NCBI GenBank assembly: GCA_049274895.1
Contig: JBASTM010000008.1
Location: forward strand, 645 to 64,644
Origin: Minisyncoccia bacterium
Lineage (GTDB): Bacteria; Patescibacteriota; Minisyncoccia; JACQLN01
Direction: 5' to 3'
Length of the DNA stretch: 64,000 nucleotides
In this document: positions 9,441 through 63,940 of the stretch, one piece after another
How the letters are laid out: each line of letters starts with the position of its first letter
Position numbering within the stretch: position 1 is the stretch's first letter
Made by a program: the position numbers and the translations under genes
The notes under the pieces: model-generated
The model's database searches: none
Told to the model about the DNA's origin: nothing
Seen by the model: only the letters and a program-made list of their open reading frames with translations

Positions 9441-9572
9441 GCAGTATTCTTGAATTAGTCCGAACGCACTTTTCCGAAAAAATTCCCCCGCGAAAATTCG
9501 GAAAGGCGGCGGAGCCGCACCGCTGACAATTTCAAGTTTTTCCCTGCCTGCCGGCAGGCAGGTTTGGCGGCA
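9441..9572. repeat. GC-rich noncoding element, copy 1 (shares ends with 58109-58370) carrying the palindrome CCTGCCTGCCGGCAGGCAGG
   Basis: 31-nt 5' block GCAGTATTCTTGAATTAGTCCGAACGCACTT and 3' block ACAA.TTTTCCCTGCC…GTTTGGCGGC are shared with the second copy; perfect 20-nt palindrome at 9542-9562. Confidence 0.6.
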
Positions 9573-9618: not shown

Positions 9619-10275
9619 TTACAATTCTTTTCTCTCCTTTGCGTTTTTGACCACCAATTCGGCTAGTCGAAGTGTGGTTTCAAACGTCTCTTCTTTTCCC
9701 GTAATTTCCTTTCTCGCCTCAACCTCTGCACGATCTTGGGCAATAATTTCTTCTACAGTCATACCTTCTTTGATTTTTGGGACGATCCGCTCAAAATATC
9801 TTTTAACTCTCCCGTTACTAAGAACCGCTTGTATTAATTCCAGTTTTTCTGCTTCTGAAATATCTTTTTCCATTCGTTCACCATACGCACGTTTTGCCGA
9901 TTCTGTAACTCCAACAAAATCAGATACCGAGCTATCTACCTCTGGATTTTCGGGGGCAGATAATTCCTTTTCCGCGTTTTTATTATCAAAAATTGCAACT
10001 AGCTCTTTTTCATCGGCAACACCAGCCCGAGAGAACACAAGAGCATCATATTTTGGGTCATCAGAAAATCCAGTTTCTATTAAAGAGGCGTTTTTTCTTT
10101 TTTCCTCTGCCTGCTCTGATGAAATTCTACCTGCTTTTTCCATCGCAGAAAGCTCGTCATTCAATGCCCCAAGAAAAATGGCTCTTGGGTCTTCTACAAT
10201 TTTCTCTTTTTCTTCCGGCTTTGGAGTTTCCTCCTGCGGTGGAACTGGATTATTAAAAGGATTTTCTATGCTCAT
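9619..10275 (-). CDS. Hypothetical acidic protein
   Basis: 218-aa ORF with normal composition, preceded by the conserved 130-nt tRNA-distal module; the overlapping + strand ORF 9605-10543 is S-rich and likely spurious. Confidence 0.5.
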   Translation of the reverse strand: MSIENPFNNPVPPQEETPKPEEKEKIVEDPRAIFLGALNDELSAMEKAGRISSEQAEEKRKNASLIETGFSDDPKYDALVFSRAGVADEKELVAIFDNKNAEKELSAPENPEVDSSVSDFVGVTESAKRAYGERMEKDISEAEKLELIQAVLSNGRVKRYFERIVPKIKEGMTVEEIIAQDRAEVEARKEITGKEETFETTLRLAELVVKNAKERKEL

Positions 10276-10299: not shown

Positions 10300-10438
10300 A
10301 AAGAATTTTATGATTTTGATTAAAAATTTTTCTTCCCCCAAAATGCGAAATCGTGAATTCGTTTTTACCCCCAAAATTGAATACCAATTAGTCGCCGAGC
10401 GAAGCGAGGCGAACCAAAACTCTTTGACTTTTCCTGTC
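10300..10438 (-). repeat. Conserved ~130-nt module between tRNA-Arg and the downstream gene (copy 1 of 2)
   Basis: About 90% identical to 59340-59468 located after tRNA-Leu(GAG); contains GTCGCCGAGCGAAGCGAGGCGAACC and GGGGGAAGAAAAATTTTTAATC just before the ATG of the downstream gene. Confidence 0.7.
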
Positions 10439-10514
10439 TGGTGTCCCTGGCAGGAATTGAACCTGCGATCTCTTCCTCCGCAGGGAAGCGCTCTATCCGC
10501 TGAGCTACAGGGAC
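10439..10514 (-). tRNA. tRNA-Arg (anticodon GCG) with encoded CCA
   Basis: Minus-strand reading GTCCCTG…D-arm GCTCAGCGGATAGAGC, anticodon stem-loop CTTCC-CTGCGGA-GGAAG, T-arm GCAGG-TTCAATT-CCTGC and ACCA. Confidence 0.7.
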
Positions 10515-13025: not shown

Positions 13026-13113
13026 GGAGGCGTGGCCGAGTGGCTTAAGGCAGCAGTTTGCTAAACTGCGGGGGTCTAAAAAGCCCCACGAAGGTTCGAA
13101 TCCTTCCGCCTCC
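13026..13113 (+). tRNA. tRNA-Ser (anticodon GCT), type II
   Basis: Acceptor GGAGGCG/CGCCTCC, anticodon stem-loop GCAGT-TTGCTAA-ACTGC, long variable arm and T-arm GAAGG-TTCGAAT-CCTTC. Confidence 0.8.
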
Positions 13114-13164
13114 GCATTGACAACTTTTTATCGGCATGACCCGAGTGCCTATAAAAAAGTTGAA

Positions 13165-13198
13165 ACAAAAAAGAGTGGTTAATACCGCTCTTTTTTGT
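13165..13198. terminator. Bidirectional terminator hairpin
   Basis: AAAAAGAGTGGTtaatACCGCTCTTTTTT between tRNA-Ser (+) and the recombinase fragment (-). Confidence 0.5.
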
Positions 13199-13203
13199 TT
13201 TCT

Positions 13204-14112
13204 CTACTCTTCAATCATCGTTATTTTTTTATCTTTGTAGTTTAGTCTGCTTCGCAGATTTGCGAGCAGTTCACGCTTGTCTGATACGCTACCTTCTTTC
13301 AGTAGATATCTAGCATATTGGCGGATGTTCACATCATTTTCTTCGACCAGTGCTTTTCCGATCTGACCATTCACGATCTTCTGTAACTTATTGAACCGCC
13401 TAATTTCATCCTCGAGTTTCTGTCTCATGCCAAGCTCATTGATATTTACCTTATCCATAATTTTTAGAAACTCATCAATAAGTTCTTCCTCACGAATATA
13501 TTTGTTTTTGCAGTTGCGATCTCTTGCCCGACTGCATCTGTAGTAGATGTAGTGTGCCGACGTGCCATCTTTGAGTGGTTTCCATTTTTCCTCAGCTGAT
13601 ATGCCGGACTGGCAGTACCCGCAGGTGAATAATTTTGTGAAGGCGAATTCTTTATTCTCCCTGACTATTTGATCGCGCTTCAGTTGTGCTTGAGCTTTTT
13701 CAAACAACTCTTGGGTGATAAGCGGTTGATGTTTACCTTGATACCAATTACCACCCTTTCTTGGGTATTCAAACAGCCCGTAATAGAAGGGGTTATCAAG
13801 TATGCGATAAACCCCGGAGAGTGTGAGTGGCTTATTACCTCTGGTATGGAAATTCAGTTCAAACTTGAGCCAGTTGTAAATCTTTCTGCCCGAGTAATGT
13901 TCATATGCGACCTTCTCGAAAATTTTCTTTACAGTCGGCGCTCGGAGCGAATCAATGGCAATCTGACATTTCTTATCCATGAGTTTCTGATTGAGATAGC
14001 CAAGTGGTGCCACTCCCGGCCATAAACCCATCTCCACCCTTGTTCGCAATCCTCTTTTAACATTAATGCCTCGATTGTCGTTTTCGAGCTTCGCTTGTGA
14101 GCCTAAAATCAT
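13204..14112 (-). pseudogene. Large serine recombinase fragment lacking the N-terminal resolvase catalytic domain
   Basis: Begins at the alphaE-helix-like QAKLENDNRGINVKRGL, then the recombinase domain (GLWPGVAPLGY) and zinc ribbon (CGYCQ…YYRCSRARDRNC) with a coiled-coil tail; there is no room upstream for the Ser-nucleophile domain because the Nudix gene abuts it. Confidence 0.55.
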
Positions 14113-21340: not shown

Positions 21341-23464
21341 ATGCCCGCTTCAATTATAAATTGCTCTGATCTTAAAGAAGCCGATGTGGTTTTGTTGGGC
21401 GCCAATTACGACGTCACTTCGTCTTTTGGCAAAGGGGCGAGCCATGGCCCGGCGGCCATTATTGATTGCTTGCATACCCAAGTTGAATTTTTAGACCGCT
21501 ACACCGGCCTGACGCCGCGGGATCACTTGAAGATCGCTTACCAAGATTTGGGTGATCTAAATTCGCTTAGTCCCGAGGCAATGGTGGACAGAATCAAAAA
21601 CGCTTACGGCGAGCATTTGGGTTTTGGGCGTTTCAACATTCTTTTAGGCGGCGAGCATTCCGTGACCAGCGGGGCCTTAAAAGCCATCGGCCAGCGCCAT
21701 TTTCCGTCCGAAATAACCGTGGTGCAACTGGACGCCCATTTTGATTTGCGCGACACCGACGAGGATTTTAACGACCAGCCGTGGGGCAGGTATTCTCATG
21801 CCACAGTGATGAGGCGGGCCTTTGAACTCGGTTATAAAATAGTTTCGGTGGGCGTGCGGGCTTATTCCGGCCAAGAATACGATTTTGCCCGCGAGCGCGG
21901 CATTGCCTTTTTTGAATGGGGTAAAGGCAGGGTGCCTTCTCACCAAGAAATCTTAAAGGCCATTACCACCGACAAAGTTTATTTGACCATAGACGCGGAC
22001 GGTTTTGACCCGGTGCATCTGCCGGCCACCGGCACGCCCGTGCAGGGCGGGCTGGAATGGAATTACGCCTTAGGGCTGATAAGTGAAATTTTTAAGCATA
22101 AAAAAGTTGTCGGCGCCGATGTGGTGGAGGTTTCACCCAGGGCGGGCGATACGCTGACCGAATACGGCGCCGCCCAAATTTGCCATAATTTAATGGCCGG
22201 GCATTTAAGCGGGACCGATAAATTAAAAAATATGAATACAGAACCTGATTTTGGGCTTGACGGGAATCCGGGCCATCAAGTTGTTGGTGATGGCCAAATG
22301 GGCGCGCCGGTGATCGGCCGCAGCGTGGCAGAATGCGCTTCGTTAAAAGATATTTTTGAAAATGCCCTGCCGGCTTTCGGCGGAGCTTATCTTAAAAGAG
22401 TTTATAGTATTTTACGCCAGGCCATTTTAAACAACGTGCCTCTGGTAATAAGTATAGCCGGGCCGGTGACCGTGTCCGATCAGCACCGCGCCTGGCTGAT
22501 TCCCTTGCTGGAAACCGGCTGGGTGGCCTATTTAACTACCACCGACGCCGCCTGCTACCACGACGGCCACGACGCCTTGTATAAATCAGCCCCAGGGGAT
22601 CGCCCCATAAAAGAAGTTGATATTTTCGGCGACGACGGCGCTTACCGCGAAGCGGGAATCATACGCGTGGCCGATACCGGATTCAAAGAACAAGTTATTT
22701 TTGACCAGGACCGGATGATTTCGGCCGTGTTGCAACGTCCTGAATTCCAAAAACGCATGACCACCACCGAGCGCAATTATATGTTGGGTCGGTATTATCA
22801 AAATCAGGAAGAGGAAGTCGGTGTTCGGCCGGGGTTACTCTCCACTTGTTCGCGTTTGGGCCTGCCGGTGTTCGTGGGCGCCGCGGCCGACGGCAGCGCT
22901 TTTCTCAACTCCGTAAAACTGTGGGCCTTAAACCGTGTTTCCAACCGCCCCTATTGGTTTGACTATGATCTCCACGCCGACGTTTTTGAAAGCTGCGCTT
23001 ACCATTATTGGGGTCTTTTTGATTCCGAAGCCAAGGCCTTGGGCGCTTTGATTTTGGGCGGGGGCGTGCCCAAAAATTACAGTTTGCAGCCCGAGCCGAC
23101 GCTGTCGCAGATATTTTTGTTGCCGGGCATCCGCGGCTACGATTACGACGTCCAGATTGTATCTTCTCCGGTAACCGACGGCAGTTTATCTGGCTGTCTT
23201 CCGGCCGAGGCGGTGAGCTGGGGTAAGGTTAACCCCGAAACTTATCGCCAGCAAACCGAGAGCATGCAGGCCGATTATTCTATGGTAATGCCCTTCATCG
23301 TCAAAGCCCTGCTGGATGATCCCGCTCTTCCACGCCGGCCCCAGCTGGGTTTGTATCATCGCCGCCAGGAACTGGTTAACAAACTTTTTGACGCAGTGGC
23401 CCAGAACCAAGCGGCCATTGAAGAAACCTTAAATTATCCCCTTAAAATTGTAGCCAGTGCTTAG
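21341..23464 (+). CDS. Fusion protein: ureohydrolase (agmatinase/arginase family) N-domain plus deoxyhypusine-synthase-like C-domain
   Basis: N-terminal half GGEHSVT…DAHFDLRD…DADGFDP (Mn-binding ureohydrolase motifs); C-terminal half GGGVPKN…AEAVSWGKV (deoxyhypusine/homospermidine synthase NAD-site and catalytic-Lys motif). Confidence 0.6.
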   Translation: MPASIINCSDLKEADVVLLGANYDVTSSFGKGASHGPAAIIDCLHTQVEFLDRYTGLTPRDHLKIAYQDLGDLNSLSPEAMVDRIKNAYGEHLGFGRFNILLGGEHSVTSGALKAIGQRHFPSEITVVQLDAHFDLRDTDEDFNDQPWGRYSHATVMRRAFELGYKIVSVGVRAYSGQEYDFARERGIAFFEWGKGRVPSHQEILKAITTDKVYLTIDADGFDPVHLPATGTPVQGGLEWNYALGLISEIFKHKKVVGADVVEVSPRAGDTLTEYGAAQICHNLMAGHLSGTDKLKNMNTEPDFGLDGNPGHQVVGDGQMGAPVIGRSVAECASLKDIFENALPAFGGAYLKRVYSILRQAILNNVPLVISIAGPVTVSDQHRAWLIPLLETGWVAYLTTTDAACYHDGHDALYKSAPGDRPIKEVDIFGDDGAYREAGIIRVADTGFKEQVIFDQDRMISAVLQRPEFQKRMTTTERNYMLGRYYQNQEEEVGVRPGLLSTCSRLGLPVFVGAAADGSAFLNSVKLWALNRVSNRPYWFDYDLHADVFESCAYHYWGLFDSEAKALGALILGGGVPKNYSLQPEPTLSQIFLLPGIRGYDYDVQIVSSPVTDGSLSGCLPAEAVSWGKVNPETYRQQTESMQADYSMVMPFIVKALLDDPALPRRPQLGLYHRRQELVNKLFDAVAQNQAAIEETLNYPLKIVASA

Positions 23465-23506
23465 ACCGGGTCTAGACCTTAATGATATACTTAAAGAATA
23501 GAGAAT

Positions 23507-24343
23507 ATGCCTGAATTTTTCCAAGATTTATTCAAAAGAAAACAAGTACAAGTGGAGGATTCTGAAGATCATGAAGAAAAACCCCAACAACTGCCGGTTG
23601 TTGAGGAGCCGAGTCCATCCGAGCGTCTAAGATCACCTTTGGAAACACCAGAGGAAGGTGTGCTTGAAAGCCGTGAGAAAACAGATAGCAAACTCTTAGG
23701 CGGCGGGTGCAATACGACTGTATTTATTGAACTGAAAGATGACGGTTCGGGTATCTTTAAACCTAAAAGTGGTGAGAATGAGAATTTAAGGGAAAATATA
23801 AGAGCTGGGACATATTTTCAGCGTGAACGAGCTGCCTATCTACTAGACAAATTTTTAGGGTTTGATCTGGTTCCTCCGACTGTTGTGCGTGAGATAGATG
23901 GCGAGATTGGTAGCTTCCAGCAATTTATTCCCGATGCCCAGCCAGGACGTCGAGTTGAACATAGCGAACTTGATGAAGCTGCTATTAAGCAGCAATTAAT
24001 AAAGCTTTGGATTTTTGATTGTATTATTTTTAATTCGGACCGCCACTGGAGCAATTTTTTAGTTAAAGATAAAAAAGTTTACGCTATTGATAATGGGTTA
24101 TCGTTTGGTGATGAAATATTTTATCCTCATGACAGTTTTTTTGATGTCCCGATTCCTCCGGAAATAGTTGAGGGTATTAAGAAGTTTCTTTTGTGGAAAG
24201 AAGGCAGAAAAATATGCGAAGATTTGCTCGGAGAGCTTTTGAGCTCGGAAGAAGTTGCGGCCTGTATGAGGCGTATAGAAAGAATCGCCAGTATTATTAA
24301 ACAGCACGGCCAAGTGCCTCGGGAGTCTGAGTTGGTTTTTTGA
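23507..24343 (+). CDS. PI3K/PI4K-like atypical kinase domain protein
   Basis: Catalytic-loop-like FNSDRHWSNFLV and activation-loop-like AIDNGLSFG (the DRHxxN…IDxG pattern of PI3/PI4-kinase-family folds); Pro/Glu-rich disordered N-terminus. Confidence 0.45.
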   Translation: MPEFFQDLFKRKQVQVEDSEDHEEKPQQLPVVEEPSPSERLRSPLETPEEGVLESREKTDSKLLGGGCNTTVFIELKDDGSGIFKPKSGENENLRENIRAGTYFQRERAAYLLDKFLGFDLVPPTVVREIDGEIGSFQQFIPDAQPGRRVEHSELDEAAIKQQLIKLWIFDCIIFNSDRHWSNFLVKDKKVYAIDNGLSFGDEIFYPHDSFFDVPIPPEIVEGIKKFLLWKEGRKICEDLLGELLSSEEVAACMRRIERIASIIKQHGQVPRESELVF

Positions 24344-24606
24344 CAGCTATGAAATTTGTAGAGATATATAAAATTCAAAATGACGGTTCGCAAACTATAG
24401 CGGCAATATGCAAACTTGCCGGCGAGACGGTTGTCTGTGAGGGTGAGCCGGTGTTGATTAGCGGATTGGAGCAAGAGGGGATTTGGGATGATTCAAAAAC
24501 TCCACCGCAGAAAGTTTTTCCCAAAGACGGCCTGGCTTTTTTAGACCGGCTCCGTTTTACTTTTAAGTCCGGTTATCTTAATGCCTCCGAAGTTAAGGAG
24601 GAATAA
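24340..24606 (+). CDS. Hypothetical protein
   Basis: 88-aa ORF overlapping the kinase-like gene stop by 4 nt. Confidence 0.35.
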   Translation: MTAMKFVEIYKIQNDGSQTIAAICKLAGETVVCEGEPVLISGLEQEGIWDDSKTPPQKVFPKDGLAFLDRLRFTFKSGYLNASEVKEE

Positions 24607-24613
24607 ACCCACA

Positions 24614-24643
24614 CCCACAAAGGGTTACCCTTTGTGGGTTTAG
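24614..24643 (+). terminator. Rho-independent terminator
   Basis: Perfect palindrome CCCACAAAGGGTtACCCTTTGTGGG followed by TTTAG. Confidence 0.6.
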
Positions 24644-24852
24644 AAACCAAACGGCCATTGAAGAAACCTTAAACTATCCTCTCAAGATCATCACCCAATC
24701 CTAAAAATCTTAAAACGTATACCGAGCTAGCGGTAGCAAGCTCGGTATACAAATTATTGAACACCCGGTGTTTGATCGATAAAGTCTCTAATGTGGTGGA
24801 CGGATACAAGCATTTGATTTTCTAGCTCGTTTTTGGTATCTTTAGTTTTATT

Positions 24853-25044
24853 ATGATCACTCAAACTCGCACACGAACTGCCCATCTGCCGTTGGCGCTC
24901 CACCAGGCCGCGGAGAGTCTTAAAAAGTTGTCCAAAAATGAATTGGAAACTTTGGAATTGCTTTTAGACAAAGAAACCAGCCGAGTTATTAAGCGGAGCG
25001 TTTCTCAAGCTAAGAAAGGCCAGATGCGAGAACTTAAGCCGTGA
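24853..25044 (+). CDS. Putative antitoxin of a small TA pair
   Basis: 63-aa ORF overlapping the next ORF by 4 nt. Confidence 0.3.
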   Translation: MITQTRTRTAHLPLALHQAAESLKKLSKNELETLELLLDKETSRVIKRSVSQAKKGQMRELKP

Positions 25045-25223
25045 AAATTGGTGATCAGCTCTCCGGACCGCTAGATTGGCTCCGGAGTTTTCATTTTTCA
25101 AGCCGGATTGGGCCACACAGGATTGCTTACAGTCTTGATCCAAGAGCGAGTAAGATTGTGATTCATTATGCCGGTTATCGAGGTGGTTTCTATGAGAAAC
25201 TAAAACAGGCCCTGGATAAGTAA
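25041..25223 (+). CDS. RelE/ParE-like toxin (short)
   Basis: …HRIAYSLDPRASKIVIHYAGYRGGFYE resembles the RelE/ParE C-terminal core. Confidence 0.35.
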   Translation: MKIGDQLSGPLDWLRSFHFSSRIGPHRIAYSLDPRASKIVIHYAGYRGGFYEKLKQALDK

Positions 25224-25371
25224 TCTTTGGGTTATTGACTTTTGATAGGGCGATATATTACAATGGGTTTACGATTATTTTGGCGGAATTTAACAGGTTA
25301 GGGAATAGGGTAATTTTACCTTGGTTTTTCTATCGTAAAAACTTAAATAAATTAAATAATCAATAAAAAAT

Positions 25372-26565
25372 ATGGCAGACAAGTTCGAACGGAATAAGCC
25401 GCACATTAACGTCGGCACCATCGGCCACGTCGACCACGGCAAGACCACTTTAACCGCGGCGATTTTGCATGTCCTTCATATGAAGGGTTTGGTTAAGCGT
25501 CTGGAAAAAGTGGACGATATTGATAACGCGCCCGAAGAAAAGGCGCGCGGCATTACCATTGCCTTGCACCACTCGGAATACGAATCCGAAAAGCGCCACT
25601 ACGCCCATATCGACGCGCCCGGCCACGCCGACTACATTAAAAACATGATCACCGGCGCCGCCCAGATGGACGGCGCGGTTTTGGTGGTTTCGGCGGCCGA
25701 CGGCCCGATGCCGCAGACCCGCGAGCATATTCTCTTGGCGCGCCAGGTGGGCGTGCCGGCCGTGATCGTCTTTTTGAATAAGGTAGACCAGGTGGATGAT
25801 CCCGAACTTATTGATTTGGTTGAAGCCGAAGTTAGGGAATTGTTAAAGAAATATGAATATCCCGGCGATACTACGCCCATCATCAGGGGCTCGGCCCTTA
25901 AAGCCCTGGAAGCCAAATCGGCCGATGACGAAGTGGCCAAACCAATTTTGGAATTGGTCAAAGCCATGGATGATTTTATTCCCGAACCGAAAAGAGAAAC
26001 CGATAAACCTTTCCTGATGCCGGTGGAAGATATTTTTTCCATAGAAGGCCGGGGCACGGTGGTTACCGGCAGAATTGAGCGCGGCCAGGTTAAAATAAAC
26101 GAAGAGGTTGAAATTGTGGGCTTGCGCCCCACCGCCAAAACCGTTATCACCGGCATAGAAATGTTCAACCGCTCTCTGGACGAAGGCCAAGCGGGCGACA
26201 ACGCCGGTTTGCTGCTTCGGGGCACCAAAAAAGAAGACGTGGAGCGCGGCCAAGTTTTGGCCAAGCCGGGTACCATTACGCCCCACACCGATTTTGAAGC
26301 CGAGATTTACGTTTTGAATAAAGAAGAAGGCGGCCGCCATACGCCTTTCTTTAAGGGTTACAAGCCCCAGTTTTACGTGCGGACCACCGATGTTACCGGA
26401 GAAGTTTTACTGCCCGAAGGCACCGAGATGGTTATGCCGGGCGACACGGTGAAGTTGGCGGTTAAATTAATCGCCCCGGTGGCGCTGGAAGAAAAGCAAA
26501 GATTTGCCATCCGGGAGGGCGGCAAAACGGTGGGCGCCGGCGTGGTTACCCAGGTAATCAAATAA
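25372..26565 (+). CDS. tuf: Elongation factor Tu
   Basis: [14 protein letters not shown] and NKVD GTPase motifs; full-length EF-Tu. Confidence 0.95.
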
Positions 26566-29493: not shown

Positions 29494-29703
29494 GGGCTTT
29501 ACCCAAGAGCGGAGCGATTGGTTGTAAAACCTTACCCAGCACATAAATCAACGAGTCATGACAATAAAATATATAAAATCAAAATCAATAAAAGGTCAGT
29601 ATGCAAACAAAACCACACCCAGTGGATTTATGTGCTGGGTGCTCACTTTTATAACTAAATTTTATACGCTAAGCAGCTCTAAAATTTAGACAAAACTGGC
29701 ATG
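29491..29703 (+). repeat. Modular intergenic cassette, copy B (rplB to rpsS)
   Basis: Starts TAAGGGCTTTACCCAAGAGCGGAGCGATTGG; hairpin CCCAGCACATAAATC…GATTTATGTGCTGGG; ends GTGCTCACTTTTATAACT…TTTAGACAAAACTGGCATG. Confidence 0.6.
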
Positions 29704-31240: not shown

Positions 31241-31294
31241 GCGGGGTGCTCAATTTAATAGCTATTCGCTTCGCTCATAGATAAAATTGGCATG
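31238..31294 (+). repeat. Modular intergenic cassette, copy C (minimal; rpsC to rplP)
   Basis: TGAGCGGGGTGCTCAATTTAATAGCTATTCGCTTCGCTCATAGATAAAATTGGCATG — only the conserved 3' module. Confidence 0.65.
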
Positions 31295-32534: not shown

Positions 32535-32680
32535 GGGCTTTGTCTAAAAAATGGAACGAAGTGGACATTTTTTAGCTACAAAACCTTATCCTGAACGTAG
32601 TGAAGGATTACCCCTCGGTTTTTACCTCGGGGTGCTCAATTTAATAGCTATTCGCTTCGCTCATAGATAAAATTGGCATG
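32532..32680 (+). repeat. Modular intergenic cassette, copy D (rplN to rplX)
   Basis: TAAGGGCTTTGTCTAAAAAATGGAACGAAGTGGACATTTTTTAG hairpin … AAAACCTTA … GGGGTGCTCAATTTAATAGCTATTCGCTTCGCTCATAGATAAAATTGGCATG. Confidence 0.65.
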
Positions 32681-41650: not shown

Positions 41651-41762
41651 TTGCCAAACCTTACCCAGCACCTTTTTGAGGTAAAGATTATTTATACATC
41701 TAAAAGGTGCTGGGTGCTCAATTTTATAACTATTTACTACGCTCTTAGATAAAATTGGCATG
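41648..41762 (+). repeat. Modular intergenic cassette, copy E (prfB to ftsE)
   Basis: AACCTTACCCAGCACCTTTTTGAGGTAAAGATTATTTATACATCTAAAAGGTGCTGGGTGCTCAATTTTATAACTATTTACTACGCTCTTAGATAAAATTGGCATG. Confidence 0.65.
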
Positions 41763-42440
41763 ATCCACTTTAAAAATATATCCAAAATCTATCCGCCGCA
41801 CATGGTGGCGCTGGAAGACGTTAATTTGATAGTCAGGCCTAAAGAGTTTATTTCGCTGGTGGGGTCTTCCGGAGCCGGCAAGTCAACTTTACTTAGGTTG
41901 TTGATAGGCGAGGAAGCGCCCACCATGGGTGAGATCATTGTGGGGGATGTAGCCATAAATTCTTTGGGCCACCACGAATTGCCGTATTTGAGGCGGAAAA
42001 TCGGTACGGTTTTTCAGGATTATAAATTGCTGGCCGCCAAGACAGTTTACGAAAACATCGCTTTTGCCATGGAGGTGGCCGGTAAGGATGAGTTGGAAAT
42101 AAAAGAAGATGTGCCGCAGGTGCTTAATTTGGTCGGCCTGGAGGATCGGGCCAATCAGTTTCCTTACCAGCTTTCGGGCGGGGAAAAACAGCGGGTGGCC
42201 ATTGGCCGGGCCTTGGTGCACCGGCCCGATATTCTGGTGGCCGACGAGCCCACCGGCAACCTGGACCCGATCAACACTTGGGAGGTCATCAACCTTTTGT
42301 TAAAGTTAAACGAGCTGGGCGCTACGGTCATTTTAGCCACCCACGACAATCAGATTGTTAATAATCTGGAACGGCGGGTGGTACTGATGGATAAGGGCCG
42401 GATTATTAAGGACGAGGAAAAGGGCAAATATTTAATATGA
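41760..42440 (+). CDS. ftsE: Cell-division ABC transporter ATPase FtsE
   Basis: Walker A GSSGAGKST, ABC signature LSGGEKQR and Walker B ILVADEPTGNLD. Confidence 0.85.
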   Translation: MIHFKNISKIYPPHMVALEDVNLIVRPKEFISLVGSSGAGKSTLLRLLIGEEAPTMGEIIVGDVAINSLGHHELPYLRRKIGTVFQDYKLLAAKTVYENIAFAMEVAGKDELEIKEDVPQVLNLVGLEDRANQFPYQLSGGEKQRVAIGRALVHRPDILVADEPTGNLDPINTWEVINLLLKLNELGATVILATHDNQIVNNLERRVVLMDKGRIIKDEEKGKYLI

Positions 42441-58370: not shown

Positions 58371-59384
58371 TTAATTAGTTCTTTGCCAACTTTCGCCAGC
58401 ATTTGAACTCCGATAGATTATACCATCTTCACTAGAAGCAGTAAGTTCTCTGGAATTTTTGGGATTGATGGCAATGGCAGTAATCTTGATACCATTAAGA
58501 CCGTCTAGTTTTTTCCAGTTTTGTCCAGCGTCAATCGTTTTCCAAGCCCCGGTTTGTGTGCCTGCATATATAACAGATAAATCTTTATGAAGAGTGGCAA
58601 GAGTATAAACTGTTGTGTTGTCAAAAACATTTGTTGTCTTTGTCCAGCCACAGAAACAACTGAAAGATTGGAAAACGCCGTCAGCCGTTCCCGCCAAAAG
58701 GAGACCCCAATTATCCCAGCCCATAGATTTATCCATCGAAGTTTGTACTGCCATGTATGCAAACGATCTTATTCCGGGATTCTCTGGTCCATCATCCATA
58801 CGCTTCCACGAAACGCCGCCGTCTTTACTTTTGAACACCCCATTATCAACAGAGTAGGCAAAAAGTAAATCGGGATTGCGTTGATTAATCGCCAAGCCAT
58901 GAATATCCGTACCTTTTATCCCATCATCAGAACGCATCCAAGTAATACCGCCGTCAATACTTTTTATGACACCTAAATCATGCCCACCGGCAAAAATTGT
59001 TTTCTGGTTTCGAGGGTCAACAACGATACTCATCCAATCATCAGCGTTGACACTTCCCTTTACCGAAACCTTTTGCCAAGTTTTGCCGCCATCGTCGCTC
59101 TTGAATAGACCGCCGTGTGTTCCTAAAAGTAAATTGCCTTCGGTGTCGTAGGTAATAGCATGGATATGTTGAGCTCCGGGTATTACAGAATTGCTAGAAC
59201 CACCTTCATCGCTATGAGACATTACTGTTTTATTAACCGAAGTATCTGCCGGAGTGTTAGTAGATTTGTTACTCACGCCCAAGAAATAGCCAACTACTAT
59301 GGCACCAACAATAAAAACTGGAATTAATAATTTGTTGTTCATATGATTAAAAATTTTTCTTCCCCCAAAATGCGGAACCGCCAA
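58371..59384 (-). CDS. BNR/Asp-box repeat beta-propeller protein (Ycf48/sialidase-like), membrane-anchored
   Basis: Repeated S-x-D-G-G-x-T-W motifs (SDDGGKTW, SIDGGITW, SKDGGVSW, SNAGESW); N-terminal TM helix. Confidence 0.6.
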   Translation of the reverse strand: MAVPHFGGRKIFNHMNNKLLIPVFIVGAIVVGYFLGVSNKSTNTPADTSVNKTVMSHSDEGGSSNSVIPGAQHIHAITYDTEGNLLLGTHGGLFKSDDGGKTWQKVSVKGSVNADDWMSIVVDPRNQKTIFAGGHDLGVIKSIDGGITWMRSDDGIKGTDIHGLAINQRNPDLLFAYSVDNGVFKSKDGGVSWKRMDDGPENPGIRSFAYMAVQTSMDKSMGWDNWGLLLAGTADGVFQSFSCFCGWTKTTNVFDNTTVYTLATLHKDLSVIYAGTQTGAWKTIDAGQNWKKLDGLNGIKITAIAINPKNSRELTASSEDGIIYRSSNAGESWQRTN

Positions 59385-59468
59385 TTCGTTTTTACCCCCA
59401 AAATTGAATACAAATTAGTCGCCGAGCGAAGCGAGGCGAACCAAAACTCTTTGACTTTTCCTGTCTGG
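59340..59468 (-). repeat. Conserved ~130-nt module between tRNA-Leu(GAG) and the downstream gene (copy 2 of 2)
   Basis: Near-identical to 10300-10438. Confidence 0.7.
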
Positions 59469-59551
59469 TGCGCGGGGGGAGACTCGAACTCCCAAGCCTT
59501 ACGGCATACGCACCTCAAGCGTACGTGTATACCAAATTCCACCACCCGCGC
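59466..59551 (-). tRNA. tRNA-Leu (anticodon GAG), type II, with encoded CCA
   Basis: GCGCGGG acceptor, anticodon stem-loop TACGC-TTGAGGT-GCGTA, long variable arm and T-arm GGGAG-TTCGAGT-CTCCC. Confidence 0.8.
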
Positions 59552-63798: not shown

Positions 63799-63940
63799 GT
63801 ATTTGTCCAAGAGCAAAGCGATTGGTGACAAATAGTTACCCAGCACCTTTTGAAGGTAAAGATTATTTATACATCTAAAAGGTGCTGGGTGTTCAATGTT
63901 GTAACTACTCGCTATGCTCATAGACAACATTGGCATATGG
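63796..63940 (+). repeat. Modular intergenic cassette, copy F
   Basis: TAAGTATTTGTCCAAGAGCAAAGCGATTGG…TTACCCAGCACCTTTTGAAGGTAAAGATTATTTATACATCTAAAAGGTGCTGGGTGTTCAATGTTGTAACTACTCGCTATGCTCATAGACAACATTGGCATATG; its 5' part resembles copy B and its hairpin resembles copy E. Confidence 0.6.

What the first reader, a model, noticed from the sequence alone, without database searches (positions are those of the whole stretch)
23404..24681. 1.2-kb cassette carrying a PI3K/PI4K-like kinase, flanked by 38-nt direct repeats of the host gene's 3' end
**Seen directly.** The last ~38 nt of the agmatinase-DHS fusion gene (GAACCAAGCGGCCATTGAAGAAACCTTAAATTATCCCC) recur 1.24 kb downstream with 2-3 substitutions. 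They are followed by an alternative in-frame tail and stop.

The interval encodes a protein with DRHxxN…IDNG motifs of the PI3/PI4-kinase-type catalytic loop, an 88-aa ORF and a perfect palindromic terminator.

**Inference.** A site-specific insertion that regenerated the 3' end of the target gene (integron or integrative-element-like behaviour). The cargo is a eukaryote-like lipid/protein kinase fold that is unusual in bacteria. It could be an effector or a signalling/defence component.
Basis: partly seen in the sequence, partly recalled or inferred. Interest (0 to 1): 0.75.

Follow-up and report, generated by a model that had tools for sequence, protein, structure and literature searches.

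The report
Kinase gene cassette displacing a gene tail
A 1.2-kb two-gene cassette (a type II PI4-kinase-like enzyme plus a small conserved partner) was inserted into the last 60 bases of a polyamine-enzyme gene in a Patescibacteria (CPR) genome, and the gene's original tail now sits just downstream as an unused copy; the insertion type is already known, and the cargo is an uncharacterised protein pair that phages also carry on head proteins.

Summary
23405-23448 and 24645-24688 match at 89% around an exact 21-nt core. In frame, homology runs to both stop codons: NQAAIEETLNYPLKIVASA* versus NQTAIEETLNYPLKIITQS*.

A syntenic relative (L002) has the uninterrupted gene, so the interval is a real insertion. 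The downstream copy resembles the native tail (55/60 to L002). The in-gene copy is more diverged (47/60), so I infer it was imported with the cassette. This is not proven.

No recombinase or attC lies in the cassette, so it is not an integron. A related genome (L003) has different cargo at the same site, flanked by a 107-nt tail duplication.

The cargo is a conserved operon:
- a type II PI4-kinase-like kinase (AF2 pLDDT 89; Foldseek PI4KIIα E=4e-10), common in Patescibacteria rather than unusual in bacteria;
- an 85-aa partner that follows it in 17 of 23 kinase loci.

In phage contigs the kinase domain is fused to MuF/minor-capsid proteins, and partner-like matches lie downstream in 11 of 22. 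This suggests a toxin/effector plus neutraliser pair.

Verdict: a real recombinase-less cassette of a known structural kind with uncharacterised cargo. Interest is moderate.

The parts
21341..23464 (+). Target gene: agmatinase / deoxyhypusine-synthase-like (homospermidine-type) fusion, 707 aa
   Evidence: Pfam Arginase 7.6e-57 and DS 1.1e-33. NCBIfam agmatinase 1.8e-60 and homospermidine biosynthesis protein 1.1e-54, the latter below its cutoff. Fusion orthologs are 64-87% identical.
23405..23464 (+). Repeat copy 1: the functional last 20 codons of the gene (NQAAIEETLNYPLKIVASA*), inferred to be the tail supplied with the cassette
   Evidence: Identity to the L002 tail is 47/60, against 55/60 for copy 2. 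It shares Ala at codon 3 and Ser at codon 18 with the functional tail of the other cassette-bearing genome, L021.
23465..23506 (+). Cassette left spacer with a promoter-like site (TAGACC, 18 nt, TATACT, with TG before the second hexamer; 23462-23491), conserved as TGgTATACTT in L021
   Evidence: pattern match only; conservation in L021. Function is inferred.
23507..24343 (+). Type II PI4-kinase-like kinase, 278 aa, with a disordered acidic N-terminus of about 45 aa
   Evidence: Pfam PF00454 26.8 bits against a cutoff of 27.1. TIGR03843 E=2.6e-22, below its cutoff. The profile hits PI4K2B and PI4K2A at 6e-16 and 8e-15. AF2 pLDDT 89; Foldseek 4hne E=3.7e-10, TM 0.60. K85, D178 and D195 are invariant and N183 is nearly invariant.
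24349..24606 (+).
24613..24639 (.). Perfect 12-bp-stem hairpin closing the cassette; a likely transcription stop, without a T-run
   Evidence: It is present but truncated in L021.
24645..24704 (+). Repeat copy 2: orphan, native-type tail of the gene (NQTAIEETLNYPLKIITQS*), not attached to any gene body
   Evidence: It matches the L002 tail at 55/60, and homology with L002 continues into the downstream hairpin.
24717..24750 (.). Native hairpin that follows the gene's stop codon in the empty-site relative
   Evidence: Inverted repeat I5; -24.2 kcal/mol, z = -6.7. The same position and sequence type occur in L002 and L021.
24853..25223 (+). Native neighbours: a 63-aa antitoxin-like ORF plus an N-terminally short ParE-like toxin ORF (60 aa here, 98 aa in L002)
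   Evidence: Pfam ParE-like_toxin 8.1e-05, matching profile positions 34-87 only. Synteny with L002.

Best explanation
**What is shown.** The 1,240-nt unit runs from the gene tail through the hairpin. It is a horizontally acquired, recombinase-less two-gene cassette joined to the chromosome inside the last 60 nt of the agmatinase-DHS gene. The gene stayed intact. A second, native-type copy of its tail was left immediately downstream, cut off from the gene.

**Inferred mechanism (tail swap).** The incoming DNA carried its own version of the gene tail ahead of the kinase operon. Recombination within the conserved tail sequence (the exact 21-nt core) attached that imported tail to the resident gene body. 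The resident tail was displaced. The cassette encodes none of the enzymes needed. I propose host homologous recombination after DNA uptake, either by single crossover of a circular copy or by allelic exchange from a relative that already had the arrangement. The first creation of such a structure may have been an insertion with long target duplication.

**Inferred cargo function.** The cargo is an active type II PI4K-like kinase plus a cognate 85-aa partner working as a pair. The most likely reading is a kinase toxin/effector and its neutralising partner, used in conflict or addiction. A housekeeping lipid kinase is less likely.
For: **Insertion and empty site**
- L002, L027 and L030 have identical synteny without the cassette.
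- L021 has the same cassette at the same site.
- GC is 0.418 in the cassette and 0.525 in the gene.

**Imported tail**
- Copy 2 matches the L002 tail at 55/60. Copy 1 matches at 47/60. The two copies match each other at 45/60.
- I polarised the changes by hand from the alignment, using L003 copy 1 and L004 as outgroups. The unselected orphan carries about 3-4 derived changes. The functional copy carries about 11-12, including a Gln-to-Ser codon changed at all three positions. That is the reverse of what an in-situ duplication followed by drift predicts.
- Both cassette-bearing genomes share Ala at codon 3 and Ser at codon 18 in the functional tail. The window's orphan and the empty sites keep Thr at codon 3; both orphans and the empty sites keep Gln at codon 18.

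**No self-encoded recombinase.** The cassette holds only the two ORFs.

**Host route is plausible.** Patescibacteria retain homologous-recombination genes, and Saccharibacteria are naturally competent (PMC12455944, PMC10633639).

**Cargo**
- Catalytic residues are invariant or nearly so.
- Profile and fold searches both point to PI4KII.
- The partner is co-located in 17 of 23 loci.
- In phage contigs the kinase domain is fused C-terminally to MuF or minor-capsid-2 proteins, next to terminase and portal in the two contigs whose neighbours I scanned. ADP-ribosyltransferase domains are sometimes fused as well. Partner-like matches lie downstream in 11 of 22 viral loci; 8 are substantial and 3 are 22-aa matches at E about 0.005. 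This is the MuF polymorphic-toxin plus immunity layout (PMC5576092).
- The same DHS-to-tuf spacer holds ParE-like and PemK modules and a Csx3-like gene in relatives.
Against: **Against the imported tail**
- The inference rests on 60 nt. The last five codons of this gene vary among relatives (IITQA, IVSQA, IVAKP, IIAKS), so fast in-situ change of copy 1 is not excluded.
- No donor lineage with a native IVASA tail was found.
- A sliding identity profile of the gene showed no clear recombinant tract.
- In L003 both tail copies share lineage-specific states, and only the orphan is derived. That fits self-duplication as well as import.
- Kinase modules elsewhere are bounded by repeats of unrelated sequences (L009, L034, L007). 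Target duplication at insertion explains this more simply.
- No circular form or excision product was seen.

**Against the toxin/neutraliser reading**
- The partner is more conserved than the kinase: 94% against 77% between the window and L021. That is atypical for antitoxins or immunity proteins.
- Many modules sit at conserved tRNA-adjacent positions without flanking repeats, as a stable gene pair would.
Confidence: 0.5

Rival explanations
1. Insertion with long target duplication. The cassette entered without any tail of its own. The insertion event itself duplicated the last 60 nt of the gene, for example by offset joining on sister chromosomes or by break repair. The two copies then diverged in place.
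For: - This class is described for compact gene units without mobility genes. Repeats run from 30 to more than 400 bp, some overlap gene 3' ends, and most cases are in naturally competent species (PMC2853133).
- At this same site L003 has a 107-nt duplication. Both copies share lineage-specific states. The orphan carries all 9 changes, 8 of them GC to AT, including a stop.
- Repeat length varies: 107, 60 and about 31 nt.
- Kinase modules elsewhere are bounded by repeats of other sequences. L009 has a 34-nt promoter-like repeat abutting the start and stop. L034 has a 17-nt terminal redundancy inside another gene's 3' end. L007 has a three-copy motif.
- The cassette has no recombinase.
Against: - In the window the unselected orphan is closer to relatives (55/60) than the selected functional tail (47/60).
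- By my hand count, the orphan has about 3-4 derived changes and the functional tail about 11-12. That is the opposite of the expectation for duplication followed by drift.
- Described cases show both repeats matching the target about equally (Table 2 of PMC2853133). That is not met here.
Confidence: 0.3
2. Scar of a larger integrative element (prophage, ICE or IME) that used a tyrosine recombinase with an att site in the gene's 3' end. Internal deletions removed everything except one operon, leaving attL and attR (a CIME-like remnant). Alternatively, it is a small element moved in trans by such a recombinase.
For: - Direct repeats made of a gene's 3' end are the classic signature of such elements. 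SGI1 at the 3' end of trmE is an example (PMC8409611), and dusA-specific islands are another (PMC4482086).
- Kinase modules often lie beside tRNA genes.
- Orphan tRNA 3' fragments occur in L022.
- The window has a recombinase remnant beside tRNA-Ser, 9 kb away.
Against: - There is no integrase gene or fragment in or beside the cassette.
- The unit is compact: 42 nt from the stop codon to the kinase start, and the hairpin abuts the orphan.
- The same roughly 1.2-kb operon-sized unit is repeat-bounded in several unrelated contexts.
- The tRNA-adjacent modules in L005, L006 and L011 have no tRNA 3' orphan downstream.
- The nearby remnant is a large serine recombinase. From general knowledge, that class does not generate long direct repeats.
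- A degenerate search for the tail found nothing in viral contigs.
Confidence: 0.12
3. The kinase pair is an ordinary vertically inherited housekeeping or signalling operon, and the repeat is a local duplication or assembly artefact.
For: - The operon is widespread and conserved in Patescibacteria.
- Some positions are shared across classes: after tRNA-Gly in L005 and L022, and between tRNA-Met and tRNA-Asp in L006 and L011.
Against: - Empty site in close syntenic relatives.
- A GC drop of about 11 points.
- Independent assemblies and samples show the same junctions.
- Different cargo occupies the same site in L003.
Confidence: 0.05

Closest known systems
Integrative elements that target the 3' end of a protein-coding or tRNA gene and carry a replacement end (e.g. 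SGI1 at trmE, PMC8409611; tRNA-targeting islands)
   Same: The gene stays intact. The element-proximal copy differs from the native allele. The displaced native end sits at the far side of the insert as a direct repeat.
   Different: There is no integrase, excisionase or mobilisation gene. The insert is only 1.2 kb. Repeat length varies between genomes at the same site.
Insertion with long target duplication (Nobusato 2000, from memory; Furuta et al. 2010, PMC2853133)
   Same: A compact cargo unit without mobility genes. Direct repeats of 30-400 bp that align to a single-copy sequence in the empty-site genome. The repeat may overlap a gene's 3' end. Hosts are competent for DNA uptake.
   Different: Described cargo is restriction-modification systems, and both repeats match the target about equally. 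Here the cargo is a kinase pair, and the two copies are unequal (47/60 against 55/60 to the empty site).
Orphan toxin-immunity modules downstream of cdiA and rhs genes (displacement of the old C-terminal end by an incoming end plus immunity gene; own knowledge, and reference list of PMC5576092)
   Same: A new gene end plus accessory genes is recombined in at a conserved stretch. The old end remains downstream as a fragment preceded by a piece of the conserved stretch.
   Different: The target is a metabolic enzyme whose tail is not a toxin domain. The accessory genes are unrelated to the target gene's function.
MuF polymorphic toxins of temperate phages with a downstream immunity gene (PMC5576092; PMC12226406)
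   Same: Relatives of this kinase form the C-terminal domain of MuF/minor-capsid proteins. Relatives of the 85-aa partner are encoded just downstream.
   Different: The window protein is stand-alone with no MuF domain. 'Kinase' occurs nowhere in the text of PMC5576092, so no kinase toxin domain is described there.
HipBST / HipBA kinase toxin-antitoxin systems (PMC10627512, PMC9325769, PMC6581861)
Eukaryotic type II phosphatidylinositol 4-kinases (PI4KIIα/β)
   Same: Best sequence-profile and fold match. The ATP-binding Lys, DRxxxN catalytic loop and IDNG motif are conserved.
   Different: Identity is 24%. The protein is about 230 aa of core only, and the PI4KII insertions are missing. The substrate is unknown.

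Membership tests
Pfam PF00454 PI3_PI4_kinase superfamily (type II PI4K-like branch) | Score at or above the Pfam gathering threshold | tested here: inconclusive
   26.8 bits against a cutoff of 27.1 for the window protein. Most homologs carry a precomputed PF00454 hit. The family profile hits PI4K2A and PI4K2B at E about 1e-15.
Pfam PF00454 PI3_PI4_kinase superfamily (type II PI4K-like branch) | ATP-binding Lys, catalytic-loop Asp and Asn (DRHxxN), and metal-binding Asp (IDNG) | tested here: met
   K85, D178 and D195 are invariant and N183 is nearly invariant in 37 sequences. They align to the PI4K2B motifs.
Pfam PF00454 PI3_PI4_kinase superfamily (type II PI4K-like branch) | Kinase fold closest to PI4KII | tested here: met
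   AF2 pLDDT 89. Foldseek 4hne_B E=3.7e-10, TM 0.60, followed by Fam20C and Vps34.
Pfam PF00454 PI3_PI4_kinase superfamily (type II PI4K-like branch) | Phosphorylates phosphatidylinositol | not testable with these tools
   The substrate could be lipid, protein or a small molecule.
NCBIfam TIGR03843 (SCO1664 family) | Score above the curated cutoff | tested here: not met
   79.4 bits against a cutoff of 172.4, although the alignment is nearly full length. It is a related family, not a member.
Integron gene cassette | attC recombination site at the cassette end, and IntI/attI nearby | tested here: not met
   The cassette end is a perfect 12-bp hairpin, not an imperfect attC. The flanks are copies of a gene tail. 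No tyrosine recombinase was found among 20 larger window ORFs scanned. That scan is not exhaustive.
Integrative element using a self-encoded site-specific recombinase | Integrase gene inside the element | tested here: not met
   There are only two ORFs, and neither is a recombinase.
Integrative element using a self-encoded site-specific recombinase | Direct repeats (attL/attR) derived from the target gene's 3' end, with a single copy at the empty site | tested here: met
Insertion with long target duplication (PMC2853133 criteria) | Insert under 20 kb, no mobility gene, direct repeat over 30 bp that aligns to a single-copy sequence in an empty-site genome | tested here: met
   The insert is 1.24 kb. 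The repeat is 44-60 nt. L002 is the empty site.
Insertion with long target duplication (PMC2853133 criteria) | Both repeat copies derive from the target, with similar identity to the empty site | tested here: not met
   Copy 1 is 47/60 and copy 2 is 55/60 to L002, and the tails differ in 4 of their last 5 residues. It is met for the neighbouring case L003.
MuF polymorphic toxin | N-terminal MuF/minor-capsid domain on the same polypeptide | tested here: not met
   There is no MuF domain in the window protein. The domain is present in phage relatives L040, L044, L046, L048, L051 and L053.
HipBST-type split-kinase toxin-antitoxin | HipA-family kinase, HipS (HipA N-subdomain-like) protein and HipB repressor | tested here: inconclusive
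Type II toxin-antitoxin / toxin-immunity pair in general | The toxin arrests growth, and the partner binds and neutralises it | not testable with these tools
   Only context supports this.

The most novel reading that the evidence does not exclude
Patescibacteria exchange small conflict-gene cassettes without any cassette-encoded recombinase. The method would be tail mimicry, or long target duplication, at the 3' ends of housekeeping genes: each cassette carries or creates a copy of the target's last 30-110 nt. That copy keeps the gene intact, provides the homology for re-integration elsewhere, and allows scarless loss. One such cassette would carry a previously undescribed kinase toxin plus neutraliser family that phages also deliver as a MuF-fused injected effector.
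Probability: 0.25. Interest if true: 0.75.

Novelty: new variant of a known kind. Interest (0 to 1): 0.5.

Why it matters
**Gene gain in reduced genomes.** How streamlined, recombinase-poor Patescibacteria acquire accessory genes is poorly understood. This site gives a concrete, testable case. It has a clean empty site, two different cargos with tail duplications, and no mobility gene. This points to host recombination and DNA uptake as the route.

**The cargo.** The PI4KII-like kinase plus its 85-aa partner form a large family with no described function: 557 clusters at 50% identity at E<=1e-30. My literature searches found no study of its function. It links Patescibacteria chromosomes to phage head-protein effectors. 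If it is a kinase toxin plus neutraliser, it adds a new kinase class to bacterial conflict systems.

**Evolutionary angle.** It may also offer a prokaryotic relative of the eukaryotic type II PI4-kinases for evolutionary study.

Tried and rejected
**Hypotheses rejected**
- **Integron.** There is no attC-like site and no IntI.
- **Short transposase-style target-site duplication.** The two copies are different alleles, and the repeat is 44-60 nt.
- **tRNA-type att sites for the tRNA-adjacent kinase modules.** No tRNA 3' orphan lies downstream in L005, L006 or L011.
- **tRNA origin of the L007 repeat motif.** It looks like a tRNA 3' end, but no tRNA gene lies within 16.8 kb, and the motif is absent from the other 36 loci held at that point.
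- **HipS identity by sequence.** The profile against PDB and Pfam scans of 41 partner proteins found nothing.

**Searches that found nothing useful**
- **Recombinant tract in the gene body.** The sliding identity profile against L002, L003 and L004 was uninformative.
- **Phage-borne copy of the gene tail.** A degenerate pattern search of viral contigs found none.
- **Structured RNA in 22500-25500.** There was no Rfam match at E<=1.
- **More empty or filled sites.** The metagenome pattern scan gave only 7 loci, 3 of them unrelated.
- **Short contigs as possible circles.** Of four contigs of 1.22-1.23 kb, only L034 has terminal redundancy (17 nt). L035, L036 and L037 are plain fragments.
- **Literature.** No paper found describes this kinase family's function or tail duplications in Patescibacteria.

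Full report
**1. The observation**

- The repeat finder reports 23405-23448 and 24645-24688 as a 44-nt direct repeat at 89% identity, 1,240 nt apart.
- The exact 21-nt core GGCCATTGAAGAAACCTTAAA occurs only at 23413 and 24653. None of 100 shuffles gave two matches.
- A local alignment of the cassette flanks scores 31.5, against a shuffle maximum of 14.
- Both copies read in frame to a stop after 20 codons. Copy 1 is NQAAIEETLNYPLKIVASA*, the end of the 707-aa gene 21341-23464. Copy 2 is NQTAIEETLNYPLKIITQS* at 24645-24704.
- The host gene is an agmatinase fused to a deoxyhypusine-synthase-like domain.
- Between the copies lie four features:
  - a 42-nt spacer;
  - the kinase ORF 23507-24343;
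  - a second ORF whose conserved start is the ATG at 24349 (85 aa, not 88);
  - a perfect 12-bp-stem hairpin at 24613-24639 (-19 kcal/mol), with no T-run after it.
- GC is 0.418 in the cassette and 0.525 in the gene.

**2. It is a real insertion, and the downstream copy looks native**

The window protein is annotated as coming from a Minisyncoccia (Patescibacteria) MAG.

*Empty site.* The closest ortholog of the host gene is P0122, 87% identical. It lies on contig L002 with the same neighbours: MFS protein, ParE pair, fusion gene, 63-aa ORF plus ParE-like toxin, then tuf and rpsJ. There is nothing between the stop codon and the hairpin that follows the orphan in the window. L027 and L030 repeat this empty site. 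L004, L026, L032 and L033 also lack any orphan tail.

*Tail comparison.*
- The closest orthologs end in ...NQTAIEETLNYPLKIITQA. The orphan copy 2 therefore resembles the native tail.
- Copy 2 matches the L002 tail at 55/60, and homology continues into the hairpin.
- The in-gene copy 1 matches at only 47/60.
- The two copies match each other at 45/60.

*Not an artefact.* An independent Logan assembly (L001) has the identical arrangement.

*A second filled site.* A contig from another groundwater well (L021 = L029) has the same cassette at the same place.
- Its kinase is 77% identical and its partner 94% identical. Nucleotide identity across the cassette is 85%.
- Its functional tail is ...NQAAIEETLNYPLKIIAST*.
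- Its orphan is shorter, about 31 nt, encoding YPLKIIAQA*.
- Both functional tails share Ala at codon 3 and Ser at codon 18. The window's orphan and all empty sites have Thr at codon 3 (L021's orphan does not reach that codon). Both orphans and all empty sites have Gln at codon 18.

**3. The same site holds different cargo in another genome**

In a Sungbacteria MAG (L003, ortholog 83% identical), the gene is followed by three things: an unrelated 197-aa ORF, a terminator, and a 107-nt second copy of the gene's 3' end.
- The 197-aa ORF gives a weak Csx3 match in PADLOC (E = 3.5e-6).
- Both copies share L003-specific states.
- All 9 differences are derived in the orphan. Eight are GC to AT, and they include Pro to Leu and Gln to stop.
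- This fits duplication of a self or conspecific tail, followed by decay.

The spacer between this gene and tuf is variable in general. It holds a ParE-like pair in L002 and the window, PemK in L032, remnants in L033, and nothing in L004 or L026.

**4. The cargo is a conserved two-gene module**

*The kinase.*
- Pfam PI3_PI4_kinase scores 26.8 bits against a cutoff of 27.1. TIGR03843 gives E = 2.6e-22, below its cutoff.
- A 37-sequence profile hits human PI4K2B and PI4K2A at 6e-16 and 8e-15. The motifs FKPK, DRxxxN and IDNG are aligned.
- The AlphaFold2 model has pLDDT 89. Its best Foldseek matches are PI4KIIα and β (E = 4e-10, TM 0.6), then Fam20C and Vps34.
- The family is large. The word-indexed search found 210 homologs, mostly Patescibacteria. 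The exhaustive search found 557 clusters (50% identity) at E<=1e-30 and 4,655 at E<=1e-10.
- The fold is therefore not unusual for this lineage.

*The partner.*
- The 85-aa ORF follows the kinase in 17 of 23 kinase loci examined.
- It is strongly conserved, with 59% mean column identity.
- It has no Pfam family.
- It folds confidently (pLDDT 93).
- It has no Foldseek match in the PDB.

**5. Phage context of the module**

In 22 IMG/VR loci the kinase domain is mostly internal or C-terminal in proteins of 500-940 aa.
- Six carry MuF or minor-capsid-protein-2 domains: L040, L044, L046, L048, L051 and L053.
- L050 and L053 also carry an ADP-ribosyltransferase domain.
- In the two contigs whose neighbours I scanned (L040, L050), terminase and portal genes lie directly upstream.
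- tblastn finds partner-like matches just downstream in 11 of the 22 loci. Eight are substantial (48-89 aa, E from 2e-5 to 2e-10). Three are 22-aa matches at E about 0.005.

This is the layout of MuF polymorphic toxins with a downstream immunity gene (PMC5576092). The word 'kinase' does not occur in the text of that paper.

Together with the toxin-antitoxin and Csx3-like neighbours at this site, the context favours a kinase toxin/effector plus a cognate neutraliser. I put this at about 0.5. The main caveat is that the partner is more conserved than the kinase, which would also suit an obligatory subunit or a substrate.

**6. How the insertion arose**

Three facts are shown:
- the insertion is real;
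- the gene was preserved;
- a native-type tail was displaced.

The cassette encodes no recombinase. The only recombinase seen in the window is an N-terminally truncated large serine recombinase beside tRNA-Ser, 9 kb away.

I weighed two mechanisms.

*(a) Tail swap.* The cassette arrived with its own copy of the gene tail and recombined within the conserved core.
- I polarised the changes by hand from the alignment, using L003 copy 1 and L004 as outgroups.
- The unselected orphan has about 3-4 derived changes.
- The selected functional tail has about 11-12, including a codon changed at all three positions.
- This is the reverse of what duplication followed by drift predicts.
- Homologous recombination after DNA uptake is plausible in these organisms (PMC10633639, PMC12455944).

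*(b) Insertion with long target duplication.* This class is described for restriction-modification units without mobility genes (PMC2853133). It best fits three observations:
- L003;
- the variable repeat lengths;
- kinase modules bounded by repeats of unrelated sequences.

The repeat-bounded modules are these:
- In L009 a 34-nt promoter-like repeat abuts the start and the stop of the module.
- In L034 a 1,230-nt contig is exactly the module. It starts inside another gene's 3' end and finishes with the same 17 nt.
- In L007 a three-copy motif delimits two cassettes.

The two mechanisms can be stages of one process. Duplication could create the structure. The repeats could then allow loop-out, re-integration or allelic transfer.

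My weights:
- tail swap for the window's present state: 0.5;
- pure in-situ duplication: 0.3;
- decayed or trans-mobilised integrative element: 0.12;
- other: the remainder.

The 60-nt sample is small and the last five codons evolve quickly, so this ranking is provisional.

**7. Comparison with known systems and verdict**

- *Structure.* It matches elements that integrate into a gene's 3' end and supply a replacement end. It differs in lacking an integrase and in being only 1.2 kb.
- *Long target duplication.* It meets the size, repeat and no-mobility-gene criteria. It fails the criterion that both repeats match the target equally.
- *Integron.* It is not one.
- *Kinase.* It belongs to the PI3/PI4-kinase superfamily on motifs and fold. 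It is not a TIGR03843 member.
- *Pair.* It resembles MuF toxin/immunity and HipT/HipS in logic, but it passes no membership test for either.

I rate it a new variant of a known kind, with moderate interest (0.5). 'Integron-like', 'site-specific' and 'unusual in bacteria' do not.

Noticed in passing
L003 5763-6625 (Sungbacteria GCA_016188485.1, JACPHQ010000002.1): The same gene-3'-end site holds a different cassette. It has a 197-aa ORF with a weak Csx3-like PADLOC match (E=3.5e-6), a terminator, and a 107-nt orphan copy of the gene tail. All 9 differences are derived in the orphan, and 8 are GC to AT.
   Followed up: partly
L040, L044, L046, L048, L050, L051, L053 (IMG/VR viral contigs), kinase match near 8001 in most: Phage MuF/minor-capsid-2 head proteins carry this PI4KII-like kinase domain as a C-terminal fusion. 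L050 and L053 also carry an ADP-ribosyltransferase domain. A partner-like small ORF lies downstream. The word 'kinase' does not occur in the text of the MuF toxin paper I read.
   Followed up: partly
window 13026-14112: An N-terminally truncated large serine recombinase (302 aa; Recombinase and zinc-ribbon domains only) lies directly beside tRNA-Ser(gct). It is probably the remnant of another integrated element.
   Followed up: partly
window 10317-10443 and 59344-59470: A 127-nt direct repeat at 96% identity, 49 kb apart. Each copy starts at the 3' end of a minus-strand tRNA gene (tRNA-Arg 10439-10514; tRNA-Leu 59466-59551).
   Followed up: no
window 31242-31294, 32628-32680, 41702-41763, 29632-29657, 63811-63936: A family of 53-130-nt intergenic repeats (GGGGTGCTCAATTTAATAGCTATT...GATAAAATTGGCATG). 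At 31242, 32628 and 41702-41763 the repeat ends in the start codon of the next ORF: 31292, 32678 (both in the ribosomal-protein gene region; I did not check their identity) and the ABC-transporter ORF at 41760. Two copies are 100% identical. It may be a shared leader or promoter element.
   Followed up: no
L007 7826-7860, 9170-9205, 9885-9915 and 9105-9160 / 9908-9960 (Daviesbacteria): Three copies of a tRNA-3'-end-like motif (AATCCCRCCCCCKGGKT), plus a 55-nt repeat. They delimit the kinase module and a second cassette with a 214-236-aa ORF. There is no tRNA gene within 16.8 kb.
   Followed up: partly
L022 7906-7927 and about 9508-9530 (Yanofskybacteria): Orphan 3' fragments of tRNA-Gly and tRNA-Arg lie about 150-200 nt downstream of the intact genes. 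They flank very short inserts next to the kinase module.
   Followed up: no
window 25041-25223: The ParE-like toxin ORF is only 60 aa and matches profile positions 34-87. Its ortholog in L002 is 98 aa. It is probably a decaying toxin gene.
   Followed up: no
L034 1-1230 (Logan SRR22388329): A contig that is exactly one kinase-plus-partner module. Its first 17 nt, inside the 3' end of another ORF, are repeated as its last 17 nt. Either the module is repeat-flanked or this is a circular form. Many other homolog contigs are 1.22-1.31 kb long.
   Followed up: partly
P0287 (3,184 aa) and L037 / L016: A giant protein has four kinase-domain stretches. Two loci have a second kinase copy: tandem in L037, and about 6.7 kb away on the opposite strand in L016.
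   Followed up: no
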